Positions 10,472-62,800 of a stretch of DNA of 64,000 nucleotides are shown here, in pieces. The position numbers and the translations under genes are program-made. Positions within the stretch are counted from its first letter, which is position 1; every line of letters starts with the position of its first letter. The DNA is taken from positions 32,001 through 96,000 of IMG/VR virus record IMGVR_UViG_3300044675_001548; one strand, written 5' to 3'. The DNA is from a virus. Below the pieces are notes generated by a model. That model was given only the letters and a program-made list of their open reading frames with translations. It was not told where the DNA came from and made no database searches.

Positions 10472-11104
10472 TTATTCTGTATCATAAAACATTCTTTCAG
10501 AATCTTCTGTATTCCATTTTTCATAACCCTCACAATTGTAGTAGTCTTTGTTAACCAGATAGTCAGGTCTCTCAGGAAAAGGCTTAGTAACAAAGCTAGG
10601 TTCAGACCACTTAATCCGGTTGTTAGGTTGTAGTGCTATCTGACCATTGTCCAGGAGAATAATATGGTGACTCTTATGTTCTAGTGCATCTTCAGCCAGA
10701 GACAAGTCTGTGTTCATATCATTACTACCCCAGTTAATAGTAGCATAGTAGTTTCCTTTGTGGAACTTTTTATCTTTCATATAAATTTCCACTGGAGTAT
10801 CATAAAGATATGACAGATGTAGTAGAGTGAAGTTATAGGAAAAACAATTCCATATCTGTAAGTAATGAAACGGCAGATCAGGATCAGGTAGCTTTGGTTC
10901 AGTAAGTAATGCATGGGCTGGTAGCTTATCTCTAAGCACTCCATTGTCTAACAGTACCTGGAACAGTGCAGCTTGTCCCGGCATACACCTAACTGAAATG
11001 ATAACCCCCGGGGTAAATTCTCCTAAACCCTTAGTGTGCTGATACATGTACTCATTCCTAACATATACCTTCAGTGGAAAAAAATTGTGTTCTATATATG
11101 CCAT
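10472..11104 (-). CDS. conserved aquatic-phage hypothetical protein
   Basis: Likely start is MAYIEHNFF at 11104 rather than 11179, since TATCTTTG lies just upstream at 11109-11116; LQIWNCFSY and NGQIALQPNNRI motifs. Confidence 0.7.
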   Translation of the reverse strand: MAYIEHNFFPLKVYVRNEYMYQHTKGLGEFTPGVIISVRCMPGQAALFQVLLDNGVLRDKLPAHALLTEPKLPDPDLPFHYLQIWNCFSYNFTLLHLSYLYDTPVEIYMKDKKFHKGNYYATINWGSNDMNTDLSLAEDALEHKSHHIILLDNGQIALQPNNRIKWSEPSFVTKPFPERPDYLVNKDYYNCEGYEKWNTEDSERMFYDTE

Positions 11105-11430
11105 GTAACAAAGATATAAAAAAATCCCGGACTGTAACACCCGGGACTTCTTACCCAGTCCGTTGACCAGGAAACACATATCTGATTACAAAGATACCAG
11201 ATATTTTGGAATTGCAAATGTTTTATATAAGAGAATGAGGTGATATTGTATATAGTAGGTTGTGGTGGCTCCTACATCATGACACCCCGGGCCCACGCTG
11301 GAGCTGGTGTACCCCCGGCAAATCTGTGGAGAATGATTGAAAATCTGACTGTGAAAAAAGATTTTTTTTACACAGGAAAAAGATCTAGTGTTCTACAAAC
11401 AACTTAGTACTTACATTAAAATTAATTACT

Positions 11431-11586
11431 ATGAAATCAATACTTATGTACTTGTTTGCTACCCTAATGCTAGGGAGCTTCTCTGGATTATTAATGAGCT
11501 TTGGTAAAGATATGGTACAGCATATAGGATTTATGTCCTTATTCTGGGGTTGTATGCTTATGCCAATGCTTGGGAGTGCTGATTAG
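11431..11586 (+). CDS. small membrane protein (51 aa, not in ORF track)
   Basis: MKSILMYLFATLMLGSFSGLLMSFGKDMVQHIGFMSLFWGCMLMPMLGSAD; follows the first motif and ends in a terminator hairpin. Confidence 0.6.
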   Translation: MKSILMYLFATLMLGSFSGLLMSFGKDMVQHIGFMSLFWGCMLMPMLGSAD

Positions 11587-11773
11587 CATTCCCTTTTTTT
11601 CTTGTTGTAACAACTTGTTACTTAGTTTAAAAACTAAAATTTGCTAGCCTGTGTAGTGATAGATCAATCACTACCTATTAGAGAAAGAACCCCGCGGTAT
11701 GCTAGAAGGTTTAAGCCCTTGTTTTTTTTCTTCTTAACATCTTTGTACTCATAGTAAATTAAAATTTATTATT

Positions 11774-11842
11774 ATGATTACTTATGTTATAGTAGATGGT
11801 GTGTTAACCATCAAAGAATACTTAAAGAATGCAAATGCATAA
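11774..11842 (+). CDS. 22-aa micropeptide
   Basis: MITYVIVDGVLTIKEYLKNANA; sole ORF between a motif and the next terminator, TATTATG start context. Confidence 0.45.
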   Translation: MITYVIVDGVLTIKEYLKNANA

Positions 11843-11933
11843 TTTTATTTAGAGAGCCAATAGAGCTCTCTTTTTTTTCTTGTTTAAACATCTTTGTACT
11901 TACCATAAATATTAACCTTTAAAAATTTACGTT

Positions 11934-12236
11934 ATGAACAAGAATTTATCTTTTGGCTATTCTCACTTAGGATTCCACACATTAATTAAGTTAAATGCTA
12001 AGATAACTTCAGCTGCTGCTGAGTTACTTACAAAAACTTATGGTGTATGGACCAATGACAATGGCAAGTTTGGTTACAGAATAGAAGGGTGTTTAACCTC
12101 TGATAAAGTATATGCTTTCAGACAATCTTTATCTCTTGCTATCTTGGATTACAAAATAGAACAACTAGTTTCAAAGAAACTAAATATTCTAGGTGTACCA
12201 AGATATGTAGAGGCAGATTTAGAACAAGTATACTAA
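11934..12236 (+). CDS. early hypothetical protein
   Basis: 100-aa ORF within a cassette unit. Confidence 0.7.
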   Translation: MNKNLSFGYSHLGFHTLIKLNAKITSAAAELLTKTYGVWTNDNGKFGYRIEGCLTSDKVYAFRQSLSLAILDYKIEQLVSKKLNILGVPRYVEADLEQVY

Positions 12237-12306
12237 ATCAGAGAGGGGTAACACCCTTTCTTTTTTCCTGTATAACATCTTAATACTTAAATTAAAATTT
12301 AATATT

Positions 12307-12543
12307 ATGAAAAGAGAGAATCTTAAATGGGCTATTGCATCTGTTGCATTAGCCTTTGGTAGTGGATTATTTATAGGCTTTACCTATACATATCAACCAA
12401 GAGTAGAATCTCCAATGGGCAACAAGATAGAGTATTATCTTGAGCTACAAGGAGACAATGCTATTGTTGAGAGTAGATATGGTAGAGTATATAAATGCCA
12501 TCAAGACAGCATTTCAAGTGTATTAAATAAGGACAACCTGTAA
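12307..12543 (+). CDS. early membrane-anchored protein
   Basis: 78 aa with an N-terminal TM helix; cassette unit. Confidence 0.7.
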   Translation: MKRENLKWAIASVALAFGSGLFIGFTYTYQPRVESPMGNKIEYYLELQGDNAIVESRYGRVYKCHQDSISSVLNKDNL

Positions 12544-12737
12544 TGGGTTGTTCTTTTTTTCATCTTGCTCCGCAGCTTAAGCATCTTTATACTTATATGG
12601 ATAATAATTATTATTATTTAAAACAGCTGTTATGGTTTGGCCTCTACATAACATAAGCTGGTACAAAGCCGCCAACTCCTGTGTAAAAGCAGGAGTTATT
12701 ATTTTTCTTGTTAAACATCTTAATACTTATATTAAAT

Positions 12738-12867
12738 TGTTCTTGTCCAAGCAGGTAAACACAATCAGTTATACTGAGCGTGTGGATACTATACCAAGAT
12801 AATGTTATGTGAAGTACAGTAACATATAGAGATTATCAAACTCAAGGATTGCAACCTTGCAAGAACA
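12738..12867 (+). ncRNA. structured RNA motif A (stem-UCCAAGCAGG...CAAGGAUUGCAACCUUG-stem), copy 1
   Basis: TGTTCTTG/CAAGAACA closing stem; same conserved internal motifs as 15152-15274; no good ORF. Confidence 0.6.
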
Positions 12868-13060
12868 CAACAACTAGTGGGGGCAAACTCTGTGATAGAA
12901 CTTTATAAGTTCTTAGGGTGCCAGTTATTACACGTGTGTAATTAGGGCGGGTGAAGCCACAGGGTGACATCTCTACCAAAGTGAGAGAACACCTTAGCGG
13001 GATGCTAGGGTGTTCATTTTTCTTATTAAACATCTTATAACTTAAGTTAAATTAAATACA

Positions 13061-13177
13061 ATGAATACAATATGTTATATCAGAGAGTGCATCAGGAGAA
13101 AAGAGTTTTATCCTGAATGGCTCATAATAAACATAGCAGTAGATGCTATTGTAGTTTATTTAGCATTGAAATATTAG
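13061..13177 (+). CDS. 38-aa small membrane protein (not in ORF track)
   Basis: MNTICYIRECIRRKEFYPEWLIINIAVDAIVVYLALKY after the motif at 13029; ends in a terminator hairpin. Confidence 0.55.
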   Translation: MNTICYIRECIRRKEFYPEWLIINIAVDAIVVYLALKY

Positions 13178-13215
13178 TTCAATGCTTTTTTTTGTAATCT
13201 TTAAATCTATATTAT

Positions 13216-13404
13216 ATGAAAGCTTTTGGATTATTTAACATGTTTGCATGCTATGCATGTACAATCATGAGTGTTACTAGTGTAGTATATCATACTGCAT
13301 TTAGTAGAGATTATGGTACTGCTGCTATACTAGCTTTAGCAGGAGGTGCTATGTTTATCATAGCAAGAACTCTACACAATGAATGGAGACAAGGGAAGCT
13401 TTAA
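13216..13404 (+). CDS. small two-TM membrane protein
   Basis: 62 aa with two hydrophobic helices. Confidence 0.65.
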   Translation: MKAFGLFNMFACYACTIMSVTSVVYHTAFSRDYGTAAILALAGGAMFIIARTLHNEWRQGKL

Positions 13405-13459
13405 GCTTCTCTTTTTTCTTTAACATCTTTTTACTAGTATTAATTTAAAACTATATATT

Positions 13460-13720
13460 ATGGACAAGAAAATATTGTTAGAACTGAGACGTGAGCTATT
13501 AGACAAAGTAAACAGAAATAGCACTAAAGAAGATTTAGTTGCTCTCATAGAAGAAGTTTCAAAGAAGATGCATCAGTTATACATAGCTGAAAAACTAGAT
13601 GAACAAATTGCTACACTAGAAGTAGAAGGTAAAACCTATAGAGACCTATGTGAGCTATCTGATTTAAGAGCTTCTAGAGCACATCTTCAAGAGGCTATGG
13701 AGAGTAGCACAGGGGAGTAA
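13460..13720 (+). CDS. early helical hypothetical protein
   Basis: 86-aa cassette ORF. Confidence 0.7.
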   Translation: MDKKILLELRRELLDKVNRNSTKEDLVALIEEVSKKMHQLYIAEKLDEQIATLEVEGKTYRDLCELSDLRASRAHLQEAMESSTGE

Positions 13721-13815
13721 TCCCCTTTTTTTTCTTTTCTCATTTTGCTACGCAGCTTATGGATACAAACATCTTTTTACTTAAATGGATTATTAACCAT
13801 TTAAACTTTTAATTT

Positions 13816-14136
13816 ATGTTGTTTACAGAAACAAAAAGTATGGCCGATTTCTGTGCTGAAATTGGTAGTGTTAACCAAGATGGGAAGCCTGTATATGTGC
13901 TCCGAACCAACAATGACAAAAACCATAAGAATTATGGTAAACGTCATATTGTGTTCAGAGATGCCACAAATGCCAAGGCTGCCATTGCCTCTAAGCTTTC
14001 AGCAGAAGAGGTGGCTGACCCTACCAAGTTGCAAGTGTCTTGGTTTGAAGACGCTGCATCAGACAGAGAAGGGTACATGGTACACGGCATAGGTGTTGCG
14101 GCATCCTATGACGAAGTTGAGATTGTTATTGGCTAA
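13816..14136 (+). CDS. early hypothetical protein
   Basis: 106-aa cassette ORF with noticeably higher GC3 than its neighbours. Confidence 0.7.
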   Translation: MLFTETKSMADFCAEIGSVNQDGKPVYVLRTNNDKNHKNYGKRHIVFRDATNAKAAIASKLSAEEVADPTKLQVSWFEDAASDREGYMVHGIGVAASYDEVEIVIG

Positions 14137-14645
14137 CAAGCTCAATGGGATAATACAGGTAACGGGAGTGTTGCCTGTATTATTTTTTGTCTTTTCATTT
14201 TGTTATCACAGCTTATGGAAACATCTTTCTACTGAATTGGGTATTTAACCACAATCCAGTAGAAAAAGGCTTTGGCCTTTGGTCATCAGTCTACGGTCAT
14301 ACAGCCTATTCACAGTTAGTGCATACCGGTCATAGGAGGATACCTGAATTATGTGTAGCAAATGTAATTTTGTGGTAAATATTTTTAGGATAAGTGTGCA
14401 TGAAAGTGGGTGTGAGTAATAAACACTCCATCAATATTTGGTCATGACCTTGGTCACAGAATCAGTCAACAGCCTCATACAATATAGTATATATGGCTAT
14501 TACAATAACCATACTACACACACTCTTAGTCTTACACTTATCATTACTACTACTATATATATTAGTATTAGTTAGTGTTAGACAGCAATATCTTCCGGAA
14601 TTAGTTTTCCGCCACTATATATGATTATTAACCTGATTAAAACTT

Positions 14646-14960
14646 ATGATGATGAACTATCAATTAGAACAACTTAAACAATCTCATAGACCAGAGAATA
14701 AAAGGTTTAATGGTAAACTCAATGAAAGAAGTAGCACATATGAAACTAGAAAAAGAACTAGACCATGGGATAACTGTTGGTTTAGTAATAAACCACATAT
14801 TATTAATCTTACTGTAGAAGAAGCAGTAAATAAGTATCCGGATTATATTCTGTGGTGCTATAAAAACTTAAGTATTAAATGGTCTACACATACAGTAAGA
14901 TTAATTGAAAGTAAGGTTAAAAGACCTGTGTACAATACTACTATTGTTACTATGGGTTAA
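14646..14960 (+). CDS. hypothetical protein
   Basis: 104-aa ORF; TVEEAVNKYPDYILWCY segment. Confidence 0.6.
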   Translation: MMMNYQLEQLKQSHRPENKRFNGKLNERSSTYETRKRTRPWDNCWFSNKPHIINLTVEEAVNKYPDYILWCYKNLSIKWSTHTVRLIESKVKRPVYNTTIVTMG

Positions 14961-14967
14961 TTTATAT

Positions 14968-15716
14968 TACCACAAGGTTTCAGGCATAACCTCTCATTCT
15001 GTAAAGCAGAGGTTGACTTGTGGTTTATTTACTCTCATCCAAGCAGGTATTGTGAGGGTACTAAATTGACTATTAGTCCAAAGGATATTATGTTGAAGCA
15101 TAGATTTGCATTAGACAGCTGACTGATTAAACTAATAGTTAATTTATTATTTACTCTCATCCAATTGCAGGAAGGAATCTTTTCCAACCTTAGAGAAAAG
15201 AGATGACAAAACACTTGACAATAATCCTTATGGTGAGAATAGTAGTGTTCAAGGGTTGCAACCTTGTGAGAGTACAAAGAATGCTTCAGCAATTAATATA
15301 TTATTTAATTGGTTATAAATAAAAAAGCATTCTGCAAATGAAAGGCTACTACAGCAATATTTACTTTATAGGAAATAAGTTAATAGTAGCCTGGTTAATG
15401 CACCATTCCTGATTCCCAAGGTCAGGCAGTTGTGATAACACTAATAACCACTCTTGAAACTAGAGATAAAATAGCTTAGACTAAGGGTTATATACACTTT
15501 CAATGTAGTGTAGTAGTATTATTACAACTGAGTGCAGAGGGGCCAAAAATATTGGTGTGAAGAATACTTCAGCACAAAATCTATAAACTACAATCAGAAC
15601 AAGGTTCTCTTATGAGAACTTAACCAGGGAAGGTGTCTGTGTCTAAGTAATTAGGCAGGTTTTTAGATAGTATTCTGTTATGCACCAAGGACCTGCCTTC
15701 CGAAAGGGGGCAGGTA
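14968..15716 (+). ncRNA. cluster of structured non-coding RNA elements upstream of the DUF2828 gene
   Basis: ~750 nt without a credible + strand ORF; at least seven long-range stems, two motif families with compensatory base changes. Confidence 0.7.
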
Positions 15717-15757
15717 CCTTCCCACAATTAATTAGTAACCAATTAAATTTATATATT

Positions 15758-17143
15758 ATGTCTAGATTAGTCAATGCAACAAGACAGTATGATGCTTCAA
15801 CTGCTAATGGAGCTGTCACACATTCAACTAGTTTGAATTACTGTTTGGATTTGTTTTTCTTAGCAGGGGCAAGTAGAAATATGTCAGAGTCTGATATTAT
15901 ACTTGCTTTTGACCGTGCACGTGGTCAGAATAAGAACTTGGCATACAAGATTCTGTTCTGGGCGCGTGATGCAAGAGGTGGTGCAGGTGAGAAGAGATTC
16001 TTCCAAGTGGTTATGGAACATATTAGTAAGATTGATTCTTATGATTATGATCAATTAGCCATACATATACCTGAGTTTGGGTATTGGAAGGATGTATTCA
16101 AGATTGAAAAACCAAATGAGAACAATCTCAATTGGTTGGCTATTCAACTTGAAGAATCACCTAATGCTAACCTCTTAGCTAAATGGTTTCCGAGAAAAGG
16201 TCAGTGGTTTTCAGCCATGCACAAGTATCTTAAACTAACTCCAAAAGAGTTTAGAAAGAAAATTGTGGGTATGACCAAAGTAGTGGAAACTCAAATGTGT
16301 GCCAATGAATGGGATTTGATCAATTATGGTCAAGTGCCTTCAGTTGCTATGAACAAGCATAGACAAGCATTCTTTAACCGTGATGGTAAAAGATATGCAG
16401 AGTATATTGCTGATGTTCAGGCTGGTAAGCAGAAGATCAATGCTTCAGTATTATTTCCTCACCAACTGTATCAAGCAGTTTGCAATGGGGAGTATATTGA
16501 TGCTGTAGAAGCTCAGTGGGATGCTTTGCCTGATTACATGGCTGGTAGCACAGAAAGGATTATTCCTGTATGTGATGTCAGTGGTAGTATGACAGGGCTT
16601 CCTATGGATGTATCTATTTCTTTGGGGATTTATATCTCTGAAAGAAACCAAGGTATATTCAAGGATGCATTCATAACTTTCTCAGAGAGACCTGAGATGA
16701 ATTACTTAAAAGGTAGTTTGTCTGAGAGAATGAGACAGTTGATAAATGCTAGCTGGGGTTATTCTACAGATCTTCAAGCCACATTTGACTTGATTCTTAA
16801 CAGTGCTGTTAGAGAATCATTACCAGAGTCTGAGATGCCTACTAAAATTCTTATCATTAGTGATATGGAATTTAATAGTGCATGTCAAGGTGTTAGCAAC
16901 CTAGATTCTATTAGGGCAAAGTATTCTGATGCAGGATACAAAATGCCTGAAATAGTATTTTGGAATGTTAACGGTAGACTTGGTAATGTTCCTGCATCTA
17001 GTAAAGATTCAGGCATTGGCTTGGTATCAGGCTTCAGTCCTTCAATTTTGAAGGCAGTATTGCAAGGTGAGATTTATTCTCCTGAGCAATTGATGCTTGA
17101 TGCTGTGGACACTGCACGGTATTCCTGTATTGGAGTTGAATAA
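15758..17143 (+). CDS. DUF2828-family protein (TROVE/Ro60-like helical ring plus C-terminal vWA domain)
   Basis: FWARDARGGAGEK, GYWKD, AKWFPRK, VPSVAM, INASVLFPHQ; vWA MIDAS VCDVSGSM and ILIISDMEF; probable start MSRLVN at 15758 (TATTATG). Confidence 0.8.
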   Translation: MSRLVNATRQYDASTANGAVTHSTSLNYCLDLFFLAGASRNMSESDIILAFDRARGQNKNLAYKILFWARDARGGAGEKRFFQVVMEHISKIDSYDYDQLAIHIPEFGYWKDVFKIEKPNENNLNWLAIQLEESPNANLLAKWFPRKGQWFSAMHKYLKLTPKEFRKKIVGMTKVVETQMCANEWDLINYGQVPSVAMNKHRQAFFNRDGKRYAEYIADVQAGKQKINASVLFPHQLYQAVCNGEYIDAVEAQWDALPDYMAGSTERIIPVCDVSGSMTGLPMDVSISLGIYISERNQGIFKDAFITFSERPEMNYLKGSLSERMRQLINASWGYSTDLQATFDLILNSAVRESLPESEMPTKILIISDMEFNSACQGVSNLDSIRAKYSDAGYKMPEIVFWNVNGRLGNVPASSKDSGIGLVSGFSPSILKAVLQGEIYSPEQLMLDAVDTARYSCIGVE

Positions 17144-18751: not shown

Positions 18752-19171
18752 ATGAAAATATCTGTAAACTATGATGATACTGATGTAGCAAAAGCACTCA
18801 GTAAGATCATCAAAGATCCAAATTCTGAAGAGTTTGTCAAGTTACTTACTCCTATGTTATGTGGTACTAGTTATGGTACCGATCATTTCTTCAAGCTTAT
18901 GATTGGTAATAAGTTGCCGGACATTATACCCATTGGTACACTATGCAGAATGGATGTGCTTAATGTTGGATATGGTATAGATAAAGAACTTACTAGACAA
19001 AAGTTTGCAGATCAAGATGACAAAATTGTAGTGACTATAAAAGAGTTTAGAGGTTATCATGAATACAGCCCATATATTGTAGAATATACAGGAGTTGTAG
19101 GTACTGGAACCACTAAACTTGATACTGTTTACCTTAGAGAAGATCAACTAGAAATTATAGAAGAGTTTTAA
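18752..19171 (+). CDS. hypothetical protein
   Basis: 139-aa ORF. Confidence 0.65.
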   Translation: MKISVNYDDTDVAKALSKIIKDPNSEEFVKLLTPMLCGTSYGTDHFFKLMIGNKLPDIIPIGTLCRMDVLNVGYGIDKELTRQKFADQDDKIVVTIKEFRGYHEYSPYIVEYTGVVGTGTTKLDTVYLREDQLEIIEEF

Positions 19172-19324
19172 GAAGTGTATTCTGTGAATATGCTTTTCCT
19201 GACCAAAATGACATGGGAGGTAGCAATATCTCCCTTTTCATTGTTTAGCTATATAATGCTAAATTTTATTGGTTTAAACTTTTAACTGTTGGGATAAATA
19301 GATTACATTTACTAGCATAATTTT

Positions 19325-19603
19325 ATGCCGGTAATGCAATATCAGCTCCCAAATGGGAAAGTAGTCAATCTCTCAATAGAGGAATATCTTGATCTTACAG
19401 ATGAAGATGTGCAGTACCTTATGTCTCTAGACTATGGAGAACATATCTTAGATCCATTTACAGGATCAGCAGTAGAGAAAAACAAACAAGAAAAATATTA
19501 TGACTTTGATTATCTAATAGATGATGAAAGTGATGATGATGTGATATCAGATGATGACCCATTTGATGATATCATAGACTTAACGGGCCCACTGGATATA
19601 TAA
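19325..19603 (+). CDS. acidic hypothetical protein
   Basis: 92 aa with a D-rich C-terminus. Confidence 0.65.
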   Translation: MPVMQYQLPNGKVVNLSIEEYLDLTDEDVQYLMSLDYGEHILDPFTGSAVEKNKQEKYYDFDYLIDDESDDDVISDDDPFDDIIDLTGPLDI

Positions 19604-19722
19604 TACCTGAATTGCAATAAGGTATTAACAACTTATCACTTAGCATGAGTAACTAATGATATAGTAAAAATCTACTCAAAACAATCAATTATTTATTTAT
19701 TTATTTTTTAAAACTTAATGTT

Positions 19723-53899: not shown

Positions 53900-56800
53900 T
53901 TATTCTCCTAAAAATGGATTAGTACAGTTATTATCTAGATCATCAGAGTCATCTTCTTCAGTATCTTTTCTCTCAGTAAAGTTAGTTAAATTTCCAGTGT
54001 TGTCAAGTTCTATTCTTGGTATACTACCAGTATGATATATAGTAAACTTAGCACCTATCTCTTGTAAGTAATCTATGAACTGACTGTCTACTCCCGGCAT
54101 ATCTCCTACTACAAACTCACCTCCATTATTAAATGCTATTTCTATTTGATTTTTAGTTTCAGAACTAAGAGGTTTATTTTTTAATTCACCATTTCTTGCT
54201 AGCATTACCACTTTATTACCATCTACTCCAGTTTCTCTATATGCAACAACTGTTGGTGCATTATCAAAATAATCTAATGTATTATTGGTTTTATCCTTTT
54301 CATATATAGATTTGGCTGAAAAATTACTAGATGTTTGTTTATTTCTATCAAGTACTTCACCAATAAATCCATCAGCAATCTGTCTCATTGCTTTATCTTT
54401 ACCATCACCTTGAGGAGTACCTTTACCTACATTTTCAAATCCACCTTTATATCCTTGAAAGCCAGTACTTACAGGAGCTGTAGGTTGAGTAGATACAAAC
54501 TGTTTAAATCCTTCTATATCTTGTTTACCAGTTTGTTCTACATATTGAGAGTATAGTTGTTGAGCTTGCTGTTTTTGTTGTGGAGTTATAGGTGCATACA
54601 CAGTCATAATGTTTATTCCTGCGTTTTTTAAAGAAAAATATCTATGATAACCATCATTTAATATACCATTAGAGTCAACAATTCCAGGTACTTTTTGCCC
54701 TTCTTTTTTTAAACTTTCAGTGTATTTATTATTTTCTTCTTCACTTCTTTGTCCAAAATTACCTAATTTGATTTCAGATAAAGGTAATGTTTTTTTAACC
54801 CACCAAAAACCATTATTAGAATAGTTTTCTATAGTGCTTTCATCTTTGCTACCAAATACTTCATCAACCACATTATCTAATCTAATAAACCCAGCAGCTT
54901 CATATACAGCATTAGCTAATTCAGGATTAGAATCAAATAGTTCTGGTACACCTTCTTTAACTTCTCCTACTGGTTGTACAGTAGGTTGAGTAGGTTCTTC
55001 TCCAAATAAATTTAACTGAGTACCTGGTGTAGGTCCTTCTTCATCTGTTTCACTTTGTTCTTTTACAAGTTCATTGTAAATAAGTATCTGAGCAATAGCA
55101 AAGTTTGCAGTCTTTCTCTCTTTTATTTTAGTTTTTTCATTGTATTGTGGATACTTCTTTAAAAAGTCTTTTAAGAACTCTCTTGCACCATCTGCAGTTT
55201 CTTTTGTACTTTCAATTGGTTCATTAATTTTTGATAATTCATCAAAGAATTCTATTATCTGGTCTTCATCATAAGATGATTGTATAAACCCTGGTGCAAC
55301 CTCATTTGCAAGTTTAAGTGCTTCAGGAGATAATCTTCTGTTACCAGCTTCACTAAGTTTTTCAGCATCAAGCATGTATGACTTGAATGGAGTTTTAACT
55401 TGTGTAAGTCTATCAAATATAATTTGGAAAGCATTGTTATTCATGTAGTTATCTGAGAACACTTTAGAAGCATACTTCATTATGGTGTTATACTTATCTA
55501 CAGGAAGAGCTGAATTAAATCCATATTTAGATTTACCTACACCATGCTGGTATACCATCATTTGTGGGAATAAACCAAAGACATCACTAATAACTTTATT
55601 TGATATTGGGTCTTCTACTTTCTTAATATTAGGATCAGCAAGTTGTTTTATATTCTGTACATATATCTGAGCCTCTGATCCAGAGATAATTTTTCTGTCA
55701 TTAAGAGTTAACATATTATCACCAGTCTTACTTGGTACTCTAGATATTTGTTCTAGTATTGGGAACTGTGCTTTTAGCTGAGGAAAATTCTTAATGATAT
55801 TCATAATTTTATCAGTATATGAATGTTCATTATCCTTCATTATTGCAGTTCTGTTGAATGTATTCATAAGAGCTTTATCTGCAAGATACATCTCTAAAGA
55901 TGCTGCAGGTATTGTATCTTTATAAATATCTCTTAAGTATTCTCTCTCTATGACATACTTTATAAAACTTGTTTTGTCTGGGAATAAAGCATCATCCTCT
56001 TTAAATGTCTTCAGACCTCTCTTAAAGTAAGAGTTATCTACCGCATTATTCTTACCAAGGTATAAGTTGTTATTATAGTCAGATTCAATTAAGTTATAGT
56101 TAACAGATATACCTGTTATTGTTCCTTCTGCATCTTTATTTATAATTACATCTTTCTCCTGGGAGTTATTACTAGTAACTTTATGACCTCTATAATCATC
56201 AGGTCTATTACTTATTTTACCATTGGAATCTATAATATTGGACATATAGTTCTGGTAAATAAAGTTGATCATAGCATTCTTATATTCATCTATGAACCTA
56301 GAAGCACCATCTTTACCTTGACCAAAGTTAGCTTTGATAAGATCAGCATTTAATCTGATCTTAGACAATATAAAATCATTAAGTAATGTATTGTCTCTTA
56401 ACTTAAACAATGGGTTAAGCATAGACATGATGATTTCCTTGTCAAACAATGAACTAAGAACTGAATCAGTCTGTAGTGATGTCATTAAGGTTGGATCTAC
56501 CTTAGAGTTATTAGCTAACAAATCAATGTTTACATCTCTATACAATATCTCTTGTGGGCTCTTAAATGTTTGAGTATCCGGTTTTGCATTTGACTTAGCA
56601 GTAGAAATACCTTTAAGTTGTTTTTCTATTTCCAAGTAATGTAAGAACATAGAGATAGCAAGGTTGGAGTTTTCTTGACCTGGTTCTTTTACTAGTTTTT
56701 CCATGTCAGCCGAACTAAATACTCCATTCTTAAGAACATTTGGTTTGTTCACATAATTACTTACAGACTTAGCATACGTTGTACTTGTTATCTCAGGTTT

Positions 56801-59800
56801 AGTATAAAGTATTTTTGTCTGTGGACTACCTGAGATTTTCTCAAGTCTTTTTATTAAAGATACTTCAAGGTTTCCGTTTCTGACCTCTTCTATAAATACC
56901 TCAACAGACATCCTGTTAACTTTTGGTTTAAAATCAAAAGGTCCTTGAGTAACAACAAACATATCACCTTTGTGCTCCTTAACAACATTTCTAAGCAATT
57001 GAGAAATTACTCCATTGACAACCATCTCAGCTGAGTTATACTTAACAAAGTTTTGATTTTTTGGAGCATCTCCAGTGAACTCACCATAAGCACTCTTTAA
57101 TCTTTTTTGATTATCTACATACTGTCTTACTAAAGGGTTGGAAACAAAGAAGATAGCATCTCTTACCGGAACCCCTGCTTTAAATAAATAGAACAGTGTA
57201 CTAGCTACTTCCATGTTACCTTGAATAAAGAATATCCATGGGTTTTTCTCAACGTCCACAGTACCATTAATAGCCTGTGAAAATAATTCAGCTACACTAT
57301 TAATACCATCAGCATCATAGATTTTTGAAAGGGATATTCTACCATCATCTGTTTTATTATGAGGTAGGAATAATCTCATTGGAACTTTTGGTTTATCTTT
57401 AAGTTCTACATCTCTTCCAAGTTTTTTACTAAACTTAGTTAAGTAATAATCTTTTGGCATTGCCGCACCAATAGAATCAAAGACTGGACTGATAGCATTT
57501 TCATTAGCTGCAATACCAAGTACATCTTTACCTTCCATGTTTACACCATGCTTATGTACATTGTACAGTGGATGAAGTGTAATAGATGGAGTAATCTTTT
57601 TTCCATCTTTATCACCACCTACAAATCTATCATAGTCACTTACTATGTTCTCAAGCTCTTCAGAAATGTCCTGTAAGATATATGTATCATTTGGTCTCAC
57701 AAGGTTTACGTAATTATCTGGTAATTCAAGTACCCCTTTAATTGACTCAAGTATCTCATTCTCTGCAGCTTTCTTCTGTGCTTTAATCTGGCCAGCAAAA
57801 CTTTTATTAGTCTTTTCTCTCTCAGCATTTATCTTATTGATAAAGTCTTTGGTGTTTTCTTTACTAGTAACATATGTACCATCAGAAGCTATGTGTGGAA
57901 AGAATGTAGTTAACTTATCAACGTCAAAGTCACCACCAGACTTAGCAACAAGTTCAGATGGAACAAAGATCATGTTATCAGCACTAGGATCCATGAAATG
58001 ATAAACCTCCATAAACTCCATAGAGTTAAGACCTTGAACTGGAATCCTAACAGCACTTAATGTAATTGACTTTCTGTTATCATCAGTATTAAGCCACTCT
58101 TCATCTTTGATAAGTTCATTAAGTCTTTGGATAGTACCTATCTTTTCACCCTTCCATTCTTTATTAAGTAAGTTATTGAACTCACCTTGGATACCAATGG
58201 AAACTTTCATGGCATTTGTATTACCATCTTTTCCGGGCTCATAGAAAGGAAGTGTATTACTACCTAGTAGTTTTTCTCTCTCAGCTTCAGTACCTTCAGT
58301 AAACTTAACACCACCAGACCACATACCTCTAGTAAGTGTACTTGATACTTGAACCAGTGCTTCACCATAAAGCTTTTGCTTAACAAATCTTTTCTCTACT
58401 ATTGACATTATAGTCTTCTCAATTGTCTGAGCATCAAGATGTATTGACAAGTCATTTTTTAAAGTACCATCTTCATTAAGACCAATAGCCTCAACTAAAT
58501 GTTCTGGCATATCTTTTCTTCTTAGCTCTCTTTGGATTAATCTAAGTAAGTTTTCAATATTACCTTTGTAACTATCACCTTCTTTCTTAAAGTTAATCTC
58601 ATCAAGAAGCTCAAGCTTTAATAGATTAGTGTAGTTATCTACTGCAGCTTTATATCTATTAGCAGCAGACTCATTTTTAGTATTGATAAGTTTACCGCTT
58701 TCATATAGACCATTAAGAAGTAGTTTTCTTAACTGAGTTGCAAATACAACTTTACCTTTAGAATAATCTGGAACACTAGCTGATTCTTTAAGATACTCTA
58801 CATATACAGTATTAGGAGTAAGAGTCAGTTTGTCCTTTATAATCTTTTGCTCTTTGTCAGCAAAAATGTTATCTGGTTTCCCGTCAGCAGTAACACCACC
58901 AACTTTAGATCCACTGGCAAATGTTGCATACTGAATATTGTTTCTCAACATTTCATGATGTAGTGTCTCTAAGTCAGATCCTTTAATTACAGATGGTATT
59001 AAAGGCATAAGAGCAAACTTATGCATTGCTGTTACAGGTAACACTGTACCAGCTAAGTTACCATAGTTCTGCAACTTAAATACAGGGAAGAAATTTACAA
59101 CATCTGCTGCTGTAATCTCTTGACGAGCTACTATTTTTTTATAAAGTGCTTCTTGCTGATCACTCCACTTATTCATACCCTTCTTAAGTGTACGGTATGC
59201 ATCAATTGTAATATAACCTTGACCATCAGCCTCAGTCATGTTCAAGTACTTATCAGCTTCAATCTTAACTCTCTTCTCTACTTCTTCTGCAGCATTAGGT
59301 TTACCAGCATATCTTTTTTCATAATCCTCTCTGATAGCTTTTTCAATAATTGGTTTGTAAATACTATCTCTATCTGCATCCTGCATAATAGCTGTATTAA
59401 CAGTACCATTGTAAGTAAACTTAACATAGTCTGAGCTACCTACAGTTTTAGCATAAGCATTTCTATCCCATGTAAATCCAGTTTCTTTACTGTTGACATC
59501 ATTTATGAAATCTCTAAATGCTTTGTCAGTTCTGATTTTTGGTCCACTGGAAATAGCTCCTGAAGTTCTTTTATGAAACTCCTCTTTCTTATGATTGAAC
59601 TGTGCAATGTCTCCAAAAATAACTTGAGATATTTCAAAGTTATGAATCCAAGCATTATACATATAAGCTTTAGCAAGTATTCTTTCTTTTTCAGAGTTAG
59701 TTAGATTAGGTACATTTAATCTATCCATGACAGTTTTATCTATATACTTAGCTTTTTGTAAGTATTCATAGACTTCTTCTGTACTATCATTAAAGTATTT

Positions 59801-62800
59801 AGTTACTCTTTGTTTTATTCTATCATAAAGCTTAGGATCATTTTTAATATAATCCTTTAACTTCACACCAGGTTTATTAACCACAGCTAGAATATCATCT
59901 TGTAAATCTTTATCAAGTATAGAATCAAAGTACACATATGACTCTCCATACATTTTACCATCCTTAAACTCTCTGTTATAACCAGTATAGTTCTTAGCTA
60001 TAGAAGAGTTTTTAAATCTGTTGATTCTTTCAGTCTCTGCAGATATGTAAGGCAGAATAATATTGTCAAATGCAAATGATTCAGCATTACCCTCTGGTAA
60101 AAACTTATCTAAATCAACATAGTATCTTGGGTCTTTTCTATCACCAATCTCAGACATAATTCCACCTTCTATTCTCAAAGCCATAGCTGTAGACTTAGAT
60201 CCAGCTCTTAGGAACTCCTGTAAACCACCTTTAAAGAATGTGTGGAACTCCTGTAAGAATTTACTGTACTGATCTAATGATGTAGTATTAGTACCAATAG
60301 ACTTGGTAATTTTATTTCCTTCATCATCTTCAACAGTGAACTCAGCAATTTGAGTACCCATGTCAAGTATTAAGTCAAGAGATCTGCTTGTTCTTCTTGC
60401 TTTCTCAGGCTTGCTTAAATCAAATAAGGATTTAGTAATTTGTAAGTCTTCAACAAAAGGATTTACTGCAGGATTGAATGAGCTCATATATTTTAACTCA
60501 TCTTTTTTCCAGAAGTCTTCAAGCTTGGTAGCTTGATTAAAACCATTAATGATCATACTAGCACTACTATGCTCTATATGTTTGTTCACTAAGTTTCTTT
60601 CTGGGTTAAGTGCTGTAAAGTTAGAGGCATCAACACCATACTTAACTTGTAATCCAGCTATCTTCTCAACAAAGTTTTTCTGTTTAGAACCTGCCGTATA
60701 TACAAAGCTAGATGGTGGTCCAATAATTTGAGGTGAGATACCTTTTATTAAGGTAGCTAAAGGATCTTTCTTAAACTCAGAGATAACATCAGCAGCTGCT
60801 TTACTTACAGTCTTAGCATTCTCACTATAGCTTATAGCTTTTATTGTATTGAATATATAATTAACACCATATTTTTTTACACCCTGTATACTATTGAGCT
60901 CATCCTTTATAACTTTGAGGTCATCAAGATAGAAGCCCATTGCATTTAGGAACTTAAATGTTTTATCTGGGTCTAAGTTACCATTAGCATCTGAAAAGTT
61001 TCTTATTAATGCTGTTACATTTAACATAGATTGATTATCTATTCTTTCTATGTATGCATCTCTAGTATCAGCTTTAAATCTGTTACCAAATTCTCTAATA
61101 GTATTTGCTACATCTACGGCAGCATTTGTAAGTTCAGTTATGATACTTCCATCATCTTGTTTGAATCCAGTTAACTGTAGCAATGTAGCTGCAGGTTTCT
61201 GGAATGTTTGCCACATAGAAGTGATAATGTCATTCTCTGCAGGAGTAGTAGGTAGTGATGGATCAGGTATCTTGTTTAACAACTGTTCAAACTCAGGATA
61301 TATTTTTGAAGCCTCAACAATTGCAGTATACATTTGCTTTGGATCAGTAATACCATTCAAAGTTCTTACAGTGTTTTTCCAGTTTTGGTTAAAGTTACCT
61401 AAGTCTTTGAAGCCTAGTTTGTTATTAGTAGTTATAAACTTAGTACCTTTCTTAGTTTGTTTAAATAAACTTTTTAAGATATAAACTATCTCTTGGTCAG
61501 CCATCTCTAATAGAGACATTTCACCGGCTTTCTTTTCAAACTTTTCACTAGCTGTTGCATCACCAGTTGCATCTTTCTCAGCATCTATATCAGTAACTTT
61601 TTGTCTGATAAGATCAAATCTACTATTCTCAATATGATACTTTATAACACCAGTAGTTGGATCACCCCAGTTGTTTAGAGCAGTCTGTAGAATTCTTACA
61701 TTGTCTAATTCTTGACTTTGCTCATATGGTACTTCTGGTAATGTATTTACTACATCTTCATTAATATCTATTGAGGTAAATGTTTTGGCTTTCCCTTTAA
61801 TATAATTATCATACTGGTTCTTAGCCTCTTCAATATCTGTAACTATTAATATATCAGCAGGCTGATCATTAATATTATTAACAGCCTTATGTTTGTAAAA
61901 GTCTGAGATTATCTCTATGGTTTCTTTATATAATTCACCCTTCTGTCTAGTTCCCGCTTTTGTATCTAAATCTAAGTTATTATAATCATCAATCTGAGAT
62001 CTTAAGAACACATATTTATGATTACCATCTTTGTCTCTGATAACAGCTGCAGCATTTTTCTCTAATGCATCAGCATCTTGGAAGCTATTAAAAGGTTTCT
62101 CTGGCATGTATGTGATCTTACCAGGACCTTCTCCTTGTATTTGTCTAAGTCTTTCTTGAAATCTTTGTCTTACAAGTTCATATAACTGAACTTTGTTCTC
62201 AGATTTGGTCAAAAGTTTTAGAGTACCGGACTTACCATAGTTATTAGATGGGTCATTGTTTACCTCATCAACTATTTCTGATATAACAGAATCTATAGAC
62301 TCAGAAACTAGTACAGCATCTTGTTTATTTAATGAATCCTCCTTAGGTTGACTAACATTATTGATACCTCTGTTAAGTATATCAAACATTACATTATCTA
62401 CAAGTGGAGTGTATATGTTCAATAAATTTGGGTTCTCACCAGCCATATACAGTCTGTAAAATAATTCATTAACTGTATCACTCTGTTCTGCTAAATTTGG
62501 AGACATGTCTTGTACTCCAGGTATACCAAATAACTTTTTAATAAAGTTCCAGATCTTTCTGAACAATGTATTTCTTACTGGAGAACCTTTCTTAGTCTTT
62601 TGATTTAGTGCATATTTCCTAAAATCCTCAGCTAAGAGTTCTTCCATTTCACGGAATGAATAATTTTGAACAAGGCCTGTTTCAAACACCTCAGCATATA
62701 AAGCTTTCTTCTCATCTCTGGTTAAATATAACTGAGAGAATCCATGCCATGCTTCATGATATACATCAGTGAATGAACCTGACTTGTATATTTCTATCTT

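What the first reader, a model, noticed from the sequence alone, without database searches (positions are those of the whole stretch)
11398..14235. Tandem terminator-promoter-minigene cassette array (11 units)
Eleven same-strand AACAWCTT-nn-TACT-type motifs recur every ~130-450 bp. Ten sit directly after a hairpin plus T-tract, and they precede either one or two small ORFs or an ORF-less stretch. Three units share an extra CAT(C/T)TTG(C/T)T..(C)GCAGCTTA/CACAGCTTA segment (near 12561, 13741 and 14196). The core resembles the host -7 element TATCTTTG with T changed to C, suggesting a phage-specific promoter. Established: crAss-like virion RNAPs (phi14:2 gp66) transcribe early genes. Inference: these are vRNAP promoters driving individually insulated host-takeover genes, and the repeats may also allow cassette gain or loss by recombination.
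Basis: partly seen in the sequence, partly recalled or inferred. Interest (0 to 1): 0.74.

Follow-up and report, generated by a model that had tools for sequence, protein, structure and literature searches.

The report
Early promoter-terminator cassettes, crAss-like phage
An uncultured lake-water crAss-like phage starts its early gene arm with eleven small, separately terminated units that share one 16-base start signal; the signal differs between related phages, and it is a testable candidate for the still-undefined promoter of the RNA polymerase these phages inject.

Summary
Eleven copies of AACA(T/A)CTTnnTACTTA lie on the + strand between 11398 and 14235. A weight matrix scores them 22-29 bits; the next best site in the whole 118-kb genome scores 14. 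Nine follow a strong hairpin plus T-run, one a weak hairpin, and the first an A/T palindrome. Each is followed 32-48 nt later by a small ORF or by an ORF-less RNA payload.

The array opens the rightward arm of a crAss-like phage, just upstream of a TROVE/Ro60-like gene. That gene is an early gene in phage crAss001.

Relatives keep the same architecture in the same register, but the box differs by lineage (AACCTCTC, AACTGTGT, TACAACCC, GCCAACCC, GCTAACCC, CCAACTCA). A second motif before leftward genes (TTTGTATATTATA) is identical in these phages. The array holds no host-type TAnnTTTG.

Homology between strains breaks at the terminator/box junctions. This resembles the PeSL cassettes of T4-type phages.

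My reading: phage-specific promoters (about 0.85), most likely read by the injected giant RNA polymerase (about 0.55). No transcription start is mapped, and I could not test box/polymerase co-variation. The claimed likeness to the host -7 element does not hold.

This scan has already reported similar arrays in at least eight other crAss-like genomes.

The parts
11350..11374 (.). A/T palindrome (TGTGAAAAAAGATTTTTTTTACACA) before the first box, in the divergent intergenic region between the leftward and rightward arms
   Evidence: Read from the sequence. Similar sequence stands before the first box in L009 and L061.
11398..11600 (+). Unit 1: box 11398-11413, ORF 11431-11586 (51 aa, hydrophobic), terminator 11572-11600
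   Evidence: The ORF has homologs in L009, L017, L012 and L037.
11609..11732 (+). Unit 2: box 11609-11624, ORF-less payload of about 100 nt, weak hairpin plus T8
   Evidence: fold z = -1.05. A strain variant lacks exactly this unit: joint 11602>11734.
11736..11878 (+). Unit 3: box 11736-11751, 22-aa ORF 11774-11842, terminator 11851-11878
   Evidence: The ORF is 86% identical in L009.
11887..12266 (+). Unit 4: box 11887-11902, ORF 11934-12236 (100 aa), terminator 12240-12266
   Evidence: Homologs stand at other genome positions in L017, L018, L013 and L021.
12274..12560 (+). Unit 5: box 12274-12289, ORF 12307-12543 (78 aa, N-terminal hydrophobic segment), terminator 12529-12560
   Evidence: L009 carries three other units in place of this payload.
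12561..12706 (+). Unit 6: extra upstream element 12561-12579 (CATCTTGCTCCGCAGCTTA), box 12580-12595 (AGCATCTT...), short payload without a credible ORF, terminator 12674-12706
   Evidence: The listed 56-aa ORF runs through the terminator and the next box. The element plus box is 98% identical in L009.
12714..13022 (+). Unit 7: box 12714-12729, structured RNA payload, terminator 12987-13022
   Evidence: The fold of 12730-13022 has z = -3.1 and there is no ORF. The unit is absent from L009 and from a strain variant: joint 12670>13016.
13029..13418 (+). Unit 8: box 13029-13044, ORF 13061-13177 (38 aa), internal hairpin/T8 13162-13193, degenerate box 13194-13209, ORF 13216-13404 (62 aa, two hydrophobic segments), terminator 13391-13418
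   Evidence: Weak Pfam Phage_holin_2 match, E = 0.026, below the curated cut-off.
13422..13733 (+). Unit 9: box 13422-13437, ORF 13460-13720 (86 aa), terminator 13711-13733
   Evidence: The payload is replaced in L009 and in a strain variant: joint 13464>13727.
13739..14192 (+). Unit 10: extra element 13739-13767 (CTCATTTTGCTACGCAGCTTATGGATACA), box 13768-13783, leader with ATTAACC, ORF 13816-14136 (106 aa), terminator 14147-14192
   Evidence: Metatranscriptome contigs of three studies cover only 13803-14159 within the array. The 100 nt upstream are 85-92% identical to L061/L062, against 75-77% for the CDS.
14196..14264 (+). Unit 11 head: extra element 14196-14219 (CATTTTGTTATCACAGCTTATGGA), box 14220-14235, and a 13-bp hairpin 14227-14264 that includes the TACT half of the box
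   Evidence: The stem shows compensatory changes in L009, L062, L061 and L021.
14236..17143 (+). Probable long transcript from the last box: ORF-less structured region, 104-aa ORF 14646-14960, further RNA region, then the TROVE/Ro60-like gene 15680-17143
   Evidence: No + strand terminator was predicted between 14192 and 15800. PF11443 DUF2828 plus PF25043 DUF7788 and phrog_850. RNA contigs lie at 15520-15650 and inside the gene.
53900..64000 (-). Giant protein (3829 aa in the genome; runs off the window) with DFDVD: the candidate virion RNA polymerase that would read the boxes
   Evidence: DFDVD motif. Its catalytic region hits only Crassvirales genomes at 22-26% identity, best E = 9e-13; one hit is annotated putative RNA polymerase. 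No Pfam, PHROG or PDB match.

Best explanation
Window 11350-14264 is an array of eleven co-oriented, self-contained transcription units at the head of the rightward (early/replication) arm of an uncultured lake-water crAss-like phage. Each unit has four parts. First comes the previous unit's intrinsic terminator (hairpin plus T-run). Then a T-rich tract and the 16-nt box AACA(T/A)CTTnnTACTTA. Then a 15-30-nt A/T-rich leader without Shine-Dalgarno, as is usual for Bacteroidota. Last comes a payload: a small ORFan protein (four of eight are membrane-type) or a small structured RNA. The box is a phage-specific promoter. Its most likely reader is the giant DFDVD RNA polymerase that crAss-like phages pack in the virion and inject, which would make these immediate-early units. 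Three units carry an extra conserved upstream element (GCTaCGCAGCTT). I read this as a promoter-strengthening or regulatory element. One of these three is the only unit recovered as RNA in lake metatranscriptomes, and the last one probably drives the non-coding RNAs and the TROVE/Ro60-like gene. Because all units share about 55 nt of terminator/T-tract/box/leader, recombination at these junctions adds, deletes and swaps units between strains. Shown: the array, its exclusivity, the architecture, the lineage-specific boxes, and the junction breakpoints. Inferred: promoter function. Inferred by analogy with phi14:2 and crAss001: the virion polymerase as reader.
For: The array is real and exclusive, and terminators are enriched 19 against 2.5 expected. 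Box-to-ATG distance is 32-48 nt here and 28-57 nt in most units of six relatives' arrays.

Position: the array occupies the first 3 kb of the rightward block, at the point where the two arms diverge. In phi14:2 the rightward arm is early and is transcribed by the rifampicin-resistant virion polymerase gp66. In crAss001 the TROVE gene belongs to the 0-10 min class.

Lineage-specific boxes stand in one register in relatives whose TROVE protein is 77-96% identical. In each of the complete genomes G001 and G002 the box occurs only in the array, apart from one reverse-strand copy elsewhere in G002. The architecture also occurs in TROVE-less relatives G009 and G011.

Contrast within the same phages: the leftward-gene motif TTTGTATATTATA is letter-identical in G000, G001, G002, L011, L014, L016, L018, L019, L020, L022 and L037, although their array boxes differ.

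No host-type signal: there is no TAnnTTTG in the array, and sigma-70-like sites are not enriched (16 against 23 expected). No Sigma70_r2 or r4_2 domain was found in the genome, and the positive controls for those searches did ring.

The giant polymerase is among the fastest-diverging shared proteins: 41% and 38% identity to G001 and G002, against 84/80% for TROVE and 72/67% for the DNA polymerase.

RNA contigs from three studies are confined to unit 10, between its box and its terminator. Homology breakpoints between W and L009 fall at the terminator/box junctions, as do the strain joints. The regulatory region of unit 10 is more conserved than its coding sequence.
Against: No transcription start is mapped. 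Contigs cannot show RNA ends, and the RNA evidence covers one unit only.

For phi14:2, the one crAss-like phage studied, the authors found no common motif upstream of gp66-made early transcripts. I found no such array in its first 14 kb.

Box type does not track overall polymerase similarity in the three genomes I could compare. G002 has nearly the same box as this phage although its polymerase is only 38-39% identical.

The box is confined to 3 kb, whereas in phi14:2 the whole rightward arm is read by the virion polymerase.

The hairpin that overlaps the last box means either that the start lies inside the box or that something else happens there.

The terminators are canonical bacterial-type ones, which say nothing about which polymerase is used.

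The polymerase assignment rests on the DFDVD motif and on 22-26% identity to Crassvirales proteins. Virion packaging was not tested.
Confidence: 0.55

Rival explanations
1. The boxes are phage-specific promoters, but they are read by the host RNA polymerase core. A phage-encoded or virion-delivered specificity factor (a divergent sigma or a sigma-appropriating activator) redirects the core, as at T4 middle promoters or with the SPO1 sigma factors.
For: Variation by lineage beside an invariant leftward motif fits any phage-encoded reader. The downstream half of the box loosely resembles a -10 hexamer: TATAAT in L012, TACTAT in L017. The terminators are of the bacterial type. crAss001's early class includes a transcriptional regulator.
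Against: No Sigma70_r2 or r4_2 domain was found in six frames of the genome, and the controls rang. The array is the most upstream part of the early arm, so a factor encoded elsewhere would have to be made first or be carried in the virion. There is no second host-type element at a fixed distance.
Confidence: 0.2
2. The box acts in RNA, not DNA. It would be a conserved 5' leader, a processing or stability signal, or a site for a phage RNA-binding protein, on transcripts made from a few upstream promoters. The hairpins would then be processing or stability elements rather than terminators.
For: The 13-bp hairpin in the last unit includes the TACT half of the box and shows compensatory changes in four relatives, so at least there the box may be transcribed. 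The box lies at a constrained distance from the ATG. A Ro60-like RNA-binding protein is encoded next to the array.
Against: GC-rich hairpins followed by 5-8 T are enriched eightfold and look like efficient intrinsic terminators. RNA contigs of three studies cover unit 10 alone and begin after its box, at 13803-13806. The box also precedes RNA payloads, which need no translation signal. Arrays occur in G009 and G011, where the TROVE search found no match.
Confidence: 0.1
3. The boxes are ordinary host promoters, read by the host's primary sigma or an alternative sigma without any phage factor.
For: Early genes of many phages use strong host promoters, as do the PeSL cassettes of T4-type phages. 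The host is unknown, so its alternative sigma specificities are unknown too.
Against: The Bacteroidota -7 element TAnnTTTG is absent from the whole array but present before leftward genes. The box changes between phages whose leftward promoter-like motif stays identical. Sigma-70-like sites are not enriched.
Confidence: 0.07
4. The repeats are protein-binding sites for DNA transactions such as a replication origin, partition or packaging, and have nothing to do with transcription.
For: They are clustered direct repeats near the boundary between the two arms.
Against: Every copy lies in one orientation. Each stands just after a terminator and 32-48 nt before a start codon or RNA payload, and the copies are spread over 2.8 kb with genes between them. 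Iterons are normally packed into a few hundred bases of non-coding DNA (established knowledge).
Confidence: 0.03

Closest known systems
PeSL (promoter-early stem-loop) cassettes of T4-type phages phi1/RB49 (Arbiol et al. 2010, PMC2839356)
   Same: Both are short repeated regulatory cassettes that combine a strong early promoter with a stem-loop terminator. Both are packed into a plastic region upstream of small ORFan genes. In both, recombination between cassettes shuffles, deletes and inserts genes. Here the breakpoints fall at the junctions.
   Different: PeSL promoters match the E. coli sigma-70 consensus and are read by host polymerase. Here the box matches neither the sigma-70 nor the Bacteroidota consensus, and it varies by phage lineage. 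The phage is a crAss-like podovirus. Some payloads are RNAs. PeSL mini-circles were not testable here.
Pre-early promoters and terminators of Thermus phage P23-45, read by the tape-measure-fused virion two-barrel RNA polymerase gp96 (PMC10770324)
   Same: In P23-45 a virion-delivered two-barrel polymerase related to crAss gp66 starts at 14 sites that share one strongly conserved motif. Seven terminators near the left genome end share a motif. The promoter motif is present only in relatives that carry the virion polymerase.
   Different: In P23-45 the starts and polymerase occupancy were measured (ONT-cappable-seq, ChIP-seq); here nothing is measured. The motifs are unrelated in sequence. P23-45 terminators have their own 26-nt motif, whereas here they are ordinary hairpin/T-run terminators.
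Early region of crAss-like phages phi14:2 and crAss001 (bioRxiv 10.1101/2020.03.07.982082; PMC8375218; review PMC10136315)
   Same: The genome plan is the same: a rightward early/replication arm, leftward virion genes, and a giant DFDxD polymerase. In crAss001 the TROVE gene belongs to the earliest class. phi14:2 makes abundant early non-coding RNAs from long intergenic regions.
   Different: For phi14:2 the authors report no common motif upstream of early transcripts, and I found no box array there. The 2023 review does not contain the word 'promoter' at all. This phage is only remotely related: polymerase 22-26% identical to gut Crassvirales.
Coliphage N4 early promoters read by the injected virion RNA polymerase (PMC4496689, as listed; details from established knowledge)
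   Same: The strategy is the same: an injected polymerase reads a small set of special promoters at the leading part of the genome. Here each box lies 8-16 nt after a hairpin, or 24-41 nt in the three units with the extra element.
   Different: The N4 polymerase is a T7-like single-subunit enzyme. N4 has three promoters, each a small DNA hairpin (5-7 bp stem, 3-nt loop). Here the box itself is not an inverted repeat, and the hairpins have 6-18 bp stems with T-runs, i.e. terminators.
T7-group phage promoters (T7, T3, SP6): specificity co-evolving with the phage polymerase (established knowledge)
   Same: There is a short conserved promoter frame with a block of positions that differs between related phages. 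Here these are positions 4-8 of the box: ATCTT, AACTT, CTCTC, TGTGT, AACCC.
   Different: The polymerase family differs, the promoters are confined to 3 kb rather than spread over the genome, and co-variation with the polymerase is not shown here.

Membership tests
PeSL regulatory cassettes (T4-type phages) | Promoter matching the host sigma-70 consensus (-35/-10 with an AT-rich upstream region) | tested here: not met
   Sigma-70-like sites are not enriched (16 against 23.3 expected). There is no TAnnTTTG in the array. The box is AACA(T/A)CTTnnTACTTA.
PeSL regulatory cassettes (T4-type phages) | Stable stem-loop acting as terminator or attenuator within the cassette | tested here: met
   19 terminator-like sites against 2.5 expected. 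Nine of eleven boxes have a perfect GC-containing hairpin plus T-run upstream. Function was not assayed.
PeSL regulatory cassettes (T4-type phages) | Concentrated in a plastic region, mostly upstream of ORFans | tested here: met
   No payload has a significant PHROG or Pfam match. The 106-aa ORF has only four homolog clusters. Payloads are mostly absent from G001 and G002.
PeSL regulatory cassettes (T4-type phages) | Recombination between cassettes produces modular shuffling between related genomes | tested here: met
   Homology blocks between W and L009 begin and end at terminator/box junctions. Strain joints skip exactly unit 2, unit 7 and the unit 9 payload.
PeSL regulatory cassettes (T4-type phages) | Excised mini-circles | not testable with these tools
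   This needs raw reads or PCR across circle junctions; the single read-laying run returned contigs only.
Bacteroidota primary-sigma promoter | -7 element TAnnTTTG with -33 TTTG | tested here: not met
   Zero TAnnTTTG in 11300-14300 on either strand. The element does occur before leftward genes, e.g. TATCTTTG before 10472-11179.
Promoters of a virion-delivered two-barrel RNA polymerase (P23-45 gp96 type; crAss gp66 type) | The phage encodes a giant virion protein with the DFDxD catalytic motif | tested here: met
   DFDVD in the 3829-aa ORF. Remote tblastn matches to Crassvirales only. No Pfam, PHROG or PDB support. Presence in the virion was not tested.
Promoters of a virion-delivered two-barrel RNA polymerase (P23-45 gp96 type; crAss gp66 type) | One conserved motif upstream of a cluster of the earliest transcription units | tested here: inconclusive
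   The motif cluster lies at the head of the arm that is early in phi14:2 and crAss001, but no timing data exist for this phage.
Promoters of a virion-delivered two-barrel RNA polymerase (P23-45 gp96 type; crAss gp66 type) | Mapped transcription starts at the motif, and rifampicin-resistant or polymerase-dependent initiation | not testable with these tools
   Only assembled RNA contigs were available. They are confined to unit 10 (13803-14159), which is a weak hint.
Promoters of a virion-delivered two-barrel RNA polymerase (P23-45 gp96 type; crAss gp66 type) | The motif changes together with the polymerase across relatives | tested here: inconclusive
   Only three genomes hold the array, the TROVE gene and the polymerase together. 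G002 shares the box at 38-39% polymerase identity. Further contigs stop short or are not held.
N4-type virion polymerase promoter | The promoter is itself a small DNA hairpin (5-7 bp stem, 3-nt loop) read by a T7-like polymerase | tested here: not met
   The box has no inverted repeat. The neighbouring hairpins have 6-18 bp stems with T-runs. PF00940 was not found, but its control did not ring, so that search is uninformative.
Intrinsic (rho-independent) terminators | GC-containing hairpin followed directly by a T-run on the coding strand | tested here: met

The most novel reading that the evidence does not exclude
The box family [A/T]AC-N5-NN-TACT would be the promoter of the crAss-type injected two-barrel RNA polymerase. 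No promoter for that enzyme is defined in the papers I could search. Positions 4-8 would be a specificity block that drifts together with the fast-evolving polymerase, as in the T7 group. The start would lie inside the box, as the covarying 5' hairpin of the last unit suggests. The shared terminator/box junctions would also serve as the recombination sites that keep the earliest gene set in constant turnover.
Probability: 0.45. Interest if true: 0.8.

Novelty: new variant of a known kind. Interest (0 to 1): 0.66.

Why it matters
crAss-like phages are among the most abundant phages known. Their injected giant RNA polymerase has a solved structure, but no promoter for it appears in the papers I could search. 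In vitro the phi14:2 enzyme transcribes only single-stranded or denatured DNA, and no common motif was found upstream of its early transcripts.

This finding offers a sharply defined 16-nt box with natural specificity variants in sister phages. It also offers an internal contrast: a different motif before the leftward genes that does not vary. Together these give concrete templates for in vitro initiation and cross-specificity experiments, with no need to culture the host.

The array also shows that the PeSL mode of genome plasticity, in which regulatory cassettes act as recombination joints, operates in a quite different phage order and carries RNA genes as well as protein genes.

Tried and rejected
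- blastn of 11000-15000 against 50,697 phage records gave no match.
- No tRNA was found. No Rfam family reached its gathering score in 11000-15800; the one hit (Dictyostelium Class I RNA, 15279-15334) scored 33.3 bits against a cut-off of 41.5.
- PHROG and Pfam scans of all payload ORFs gave nothing significant.
- The 106-aa ORF has four homolog clusters, none with a function. Its AlphaFold model has mean pLDDT 64, too poor for a fold search. The protein atlas gave no lead, best score 0.76.
- phi14:2 has no comparable box array. Its repeated TAAAACTA is a translation-leader motif directly before start codons.
- Box/polymerase co-variation: 15 contigs found through the polymerase have no TROVE match. 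The one close contig (L064) ends about 5 kb short of the TROVE gene and the array. Metagenome records are not held for whole-record search. Sliding-window identity along the polymerase showed no segment that tracks box type, with too few genomes to judge.
- The 'direct terminal repeats' of G009-G011 are 127-nt assembly overlaps, so the distance from the array to a physical genome end is unknown.
- The polymerase core gave no hit against PDB sequences, alone or as a profile, and none against PHROGs.
- The PF00940 search is uninformative because its control did not ring.
- Array parts without RNA contig cover are not evidence of silence. Run X19 is probably DNA and was used only for strain variants.
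- Rejected as chance: none of 100 shuffles reached the observed motif count.

Full report
WHAT IS THERE

The window is bases 32001-96000 of a 118,228-bp IMG/VR virus record, estimated 99% complete and 34% G+C.

A crude gene map shows two arms. One is a leftward block of about 80 kb, at genome 80059-117546 and continuing at 549-43179. It holds virion genes and seven giant genes. The other is a rightward block of about 36 kb, at genome 43431-79893.

One giant leftward ORF of 3829 aa carries DFDVD, the catalytic motif type of crAss-like virion RNA polymerases. Its catalytic region matches only Crassvirales genomes in the phage collection. Identity is 22-26%, the best E-value is 9e-13, and one hit is annotated 'putative RNA polymerase'. 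Pfam, PHROGs and PDB sequences give nothing.

Eighteen DNA runs from lake or fresh water hold most of the stretch, so this is a freshwater phage.

THE OBSERVATION

AACAWCTTNNTACT with up to one mismatch occurs 15 times in the window. Eleven hits lie at 11398-14233, all on the + strand. Shuffles expect 2.2 hits, and none of 100 shuffles reached 15. The exact form occurs seven times in the whole genome, always in the array.

A weight matrix built from the eleven sites scores them 22.5-28.9 bits. The best other site in 118 kb, on either strand, scores 14.1. The informative columns are AACAtCTT, then two free positions (0.4 and 0.1 bit), then TACTtA. A T-rich tract stands before the box and a TTAAA-type leader after it.

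Terminator-like sites number 19 in 10500-15800, against 2.5 expected. Nine boxes have a perfect hairpin plus T-run ending 8-41 nt upstream. One has a weak hairpin. The first has an A/T palindrome.

Where an ORF follows, the distance from box start to ATG is 32-48 nt.

Payloads are as follows:
- Eight small ORFs of 22-106 aa. Four have hydrophobic, membrane-type segments.
- At least four units without a credible ORF: units 2, 6, 7 and the head of unit 11. Unit 7 folds with z = -3.1.

A twelfth, degenerate box (13194-13209) follows an internal hairpin inside unit 8.

CONTEXT

The array is the first 3 kb of the rightward arm, at the point where the two arms diverge.

After the last box no + strand terminator is predicted before 15800. 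That box therefore probably also drives the structured RNA region, a 104-aa ORF and the 487-aa gene at 15680-17143. That gene matches DUF2828 (TROVE-like), DUF7788 and phrog_850 'RNA-binding protein'.

In crAss001 a TROVE-domain gene belongs to the class switched on within 10 minutes. In phi14:2 the whole rightward arm is early, and its transcription is only moderately affected by rifampicin, which the authors attribute to the injected polymerase gp66. The leftward genes use sigma-70-like promoters read by host polymerase. Two long intergenic RNAs are abundant early.

RELATIVES

I anchored the comparison on the TROVE protein and fetched 35 viral and 79 metagenome loci.

Close relatives (TROVE 77-96% identical) have the same architecture at the same place: hairpin, T-run, a 14-16-nt box, an A/T leader, then a small ORF or RNA. 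The box differs by lineage but keeps one register:

| Box | Loci |
|---|---|
| AACA(T/A/G)CTTnnTACT | W, L009/L112, L062, L061, L124, L021 |
| AACAACTTTATAAT | L012 |
| AACCTCTCAnnACTTG | L016, L121 |
| AACTGTGTnTTACTA | L017 |
| TACAACCCnTnACT | L014 |
| GCCAACCC | L011, L019, L020 |
| GCTAACCC | L018, L022, L037 |
| TGTCAACCC | L127, L130 |
| ATCAACCCC | L147 |

In the complete genome G001 the box (6 copies) occurs only in the array. In G002, 4 copies lie in the array and 1 reverse-strand copy lies elsewhere.

Two more distant complete genomes, in which the TROVE search found no match, also open their rightward arm with such units. G011 has five with CCAACTCAnAACT and G009 has three with CTAGCCCT.

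The extra upstream element (GCT[A/T]CGCA..CTT or CACAGCTT) recurs before the last two or three units of nearly every array, whatever the box type. G011 has it too.

CONTRAST WITH THE OTHER ARM

Intergenic regions before leftward genes carry other signals. These are TTTGTATATTATA, often with TTTAAA about 13 nt upstream, and the Bacteroidota -7 element TAnnTTTG.

TTTGTATATTATA is letter-identical, and on the strand opposite to the array, in G000, G001, G002, L011, L014, L016, L018, L019, L020, L022 and L037. These phages carry at least five different array boxes.

The array itself holds no TAnnTTTG on either strand and no excess of sigma-70-like sites.

So within one set of phages, one promoter-like signal is frozen, as expected for a signal read by conserved host machinery. 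The other drifts, as expected for a signal whose reader is encoded by the phage.

WHO READS THE BOX

The genome shows no sigma-70 region 2 or region 4_2 domain, and the controls for those searches were positive. The only recognisable polymerase is the giant DFDVD protein.

That protein is among the most diverged of the shared proteins. Identity to G001 and G002 is 41% and 38%. The figures are 84/80% for TROVE, 72/67% for the DNA polymerase, and 94% (to G001) for a 538-aa virion protein.

The position at the head of the early arm and the published biology of phi14:2 and crAss001 point the same way. Together this makes the injected polymerase the most likely reader, at about 0.55.

It is not shown. 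G002 has almost the same box as this phage at 38-39% polymerase identity. Only three genomes hold the array, the TROVE gene and the polymerase together. My attempts to enlarge the sample failed.

For phi14:2 the authors found no common early motif, and I found no box array in its first 14 kb. If the reading is right, the sharp box is a property of this freshwater clade and its neighbours, not of all Crassvirales.

RNA EVIDENCE

Only assembled contigs were available. In metatranscriptomes of three different studies, the only part of the array present is 13803-14159:
- X21: a whole 351-nt contig at 13806-14156.
- X24: 329 nt at 13803-14131.
- X22: 274 nt at 13887-14159.

This stretch is unit 10, from shortly after its box (13768-13783) into its terminator stem (14147-14186). 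This is a weak hint that unit 10 is a discrete, abundant transcript. It says nothing firm about ends or about the other units.

Unit 10 is one of the three units with the extra upstream element. Its 100-nt upstream region is more conserved than its coding sequence: 85-92% against 75-77% identity to L061 and L062.

WHERE TRANSCRIPTION MIGHT START

In the last unit a 13-bp hairpin (14227-14264) begins at box position 8 and contains the TACT half of the box. Its stem shows compensatory changes in L009, L062, L061 and L021.

If this is the 5' hairpin of the RNA, transcription starts at or before box position 8. AACATCTT would then lie just upstream of +1, and TACTTA would be initially transcribed sequence, much as in T7-type promoters. 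If not, the hairpin acts in DNA or in read-through RNA. This is unexplained.

CASSETTE TURNOVER

Homology blocks between this phage and L009 (TROVE 96%) begin and end at the terminator/box junctions.
- Units 1-4, 6 (part), 8b, 10 and 11 are shared.
- The unit 5 payload, unit 7 and the unit 9 payload are replaced or absent.
- L009 has 13 units.

Contigs of run X19 (probably DNA) show strain variants that skip exactly unit 2 (11602>11734), unit 7 (12670>13016) and the unit 9 payload (13464>13727).

Junction sequences of different units cross-match at 75-93% over about 55 nt. The 100-aa ORF of unit 4 has homologs that lie downstream of TROVE in other lineages.

COMPARISON WITH WHAT IS KNOWN

The architecture and its evolutionary behaviour match the PeSL cassettes of T4-type phages. 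Those combine a strong early promoter with a stem-loop terminator, sit upstream of ORFans in plastic regions, and recombine to shuffle genes. The defining sigma-70 promoter is not met here.

The closest functional precedent is Thermus phage P23-45. Its virion-borne two-barrel polymerase starts at 14 sites sharing one conserved motif, and seven terminators near the left genome end share a motif of their own. The promoter motif is absent from relatives that lack that polymerase.

N4 early promoters are small DNA hairpins read by a T7-like enzyme. That definition is not met here.

A 2023 review of Crassvirales does not contain the word 'promoter'. Two full-text searches for early promoters of these phages returned no paper defining one.

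This scan has already reported similar arrays, with other box sequences, on at least eight other crAss-like genomes. Those notes gave me the PeSL lead, which I checked in the paper. One of them claims box/polymerase co-variation in its own genome set; I could not reproduce that kind of test here.

VERDICT

- Promoter-terminator cassettes and their turnover: yes.
- The virion polymerase as reader: likely but unproven.
- The likeness to the host -7 element: no.

It is a new variant of a known kind. Its value is that it supplies a precise, naturally varied candidate promoter for an important polymerase whose promoter is not defined in the papers I could search.

Noticed in passing
window 19627-19640 (+): A 13/14 match to the box (AACAACTTATCACT) stands upstream of ORF 19723-20211, inside the replication arm and without a terminator before it. 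It is conserved with its flanks in L062 (10022) and resembles the first unit of L021 (499). It may be an extra, weaker promoter of the same class.
   Followed up: partly
window 806, 3033, 8851, 10331, 11179 and further leftward genes (- strand): Leftward genes carry TTTGTATATTATA (often with TTTAAA about 13 nt upstream) or TAnnTTTG. The first motif is letter-identical in eleven related phages. These are candidate host-polymerase middle/late promoters.
   Followed up: partly
window 19171-19325 (+) and upstream of the leftward gene ending at window -7168: TTTAGCTATATAATGC, with a perfect TATAAT, occurs in both places. This may be a third promoter-like motif.
   Followed up: no
window 14227-14264 (+): A 13-bp hairpin overlaps the TACT half of the last box and shows compensatory changes in four relatives. 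It bears on where transcription starts. It could be a 5' RNA hairpin or a DNA-level element.
   Followed up: partly
window 12730-13022 and 14236-15680 (+): Structured ORF-less payloads lie inside and after the array, next to a TROVE/Ro60-like gene. phi14:2 also makes abundant early RNAs from long intergenic regions. Earlier notes of this scan read these as partner RNAs of the Ro60-like protein.
   Followed up: partly
window 11244-11320: A GC-rich stretch lies in the divergent intergenic region of a 34% G+C genome, between the two arms. Its function is unknown; a packaging or end-related site is one untested possibility.
   Followed up: no
window 11934-12236 (unit 4 ORF); L017 8541-8714, L018 9115-9396, L013 4680-4943: Homologs of the 100-aa unit 4 protein lie downstream of the TROVE gene in other lineages and inside the array in L021. 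The cassette payload moves between genome positions.
   Followed up: partly
L024, L028, L029, L034, L040 (upstream of the TROVE gene): More distant relatives (TROVE 39-55% identical) have arrays of tRNA-like repeats (GTTCGAnTC T-loop words up to 13 times) where this phage has the cassette array.
   Followed up: no
G009, G010, G011 (record ends): The 'direct terminal repeats' assigned by IMG/VR are exactly 127 nt in all three records. This looks like an assembly overlap, so these are circular assemblies and not evidence of physical ends.
   Followed up: yes
window 14646-14960 (+): The 104-aa ORF between the array and the TROVE gene has a weak match to the ExoX-like C-terminal motif (PF20600, E = 2e-4, below the cut-off).
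   Followed up: no
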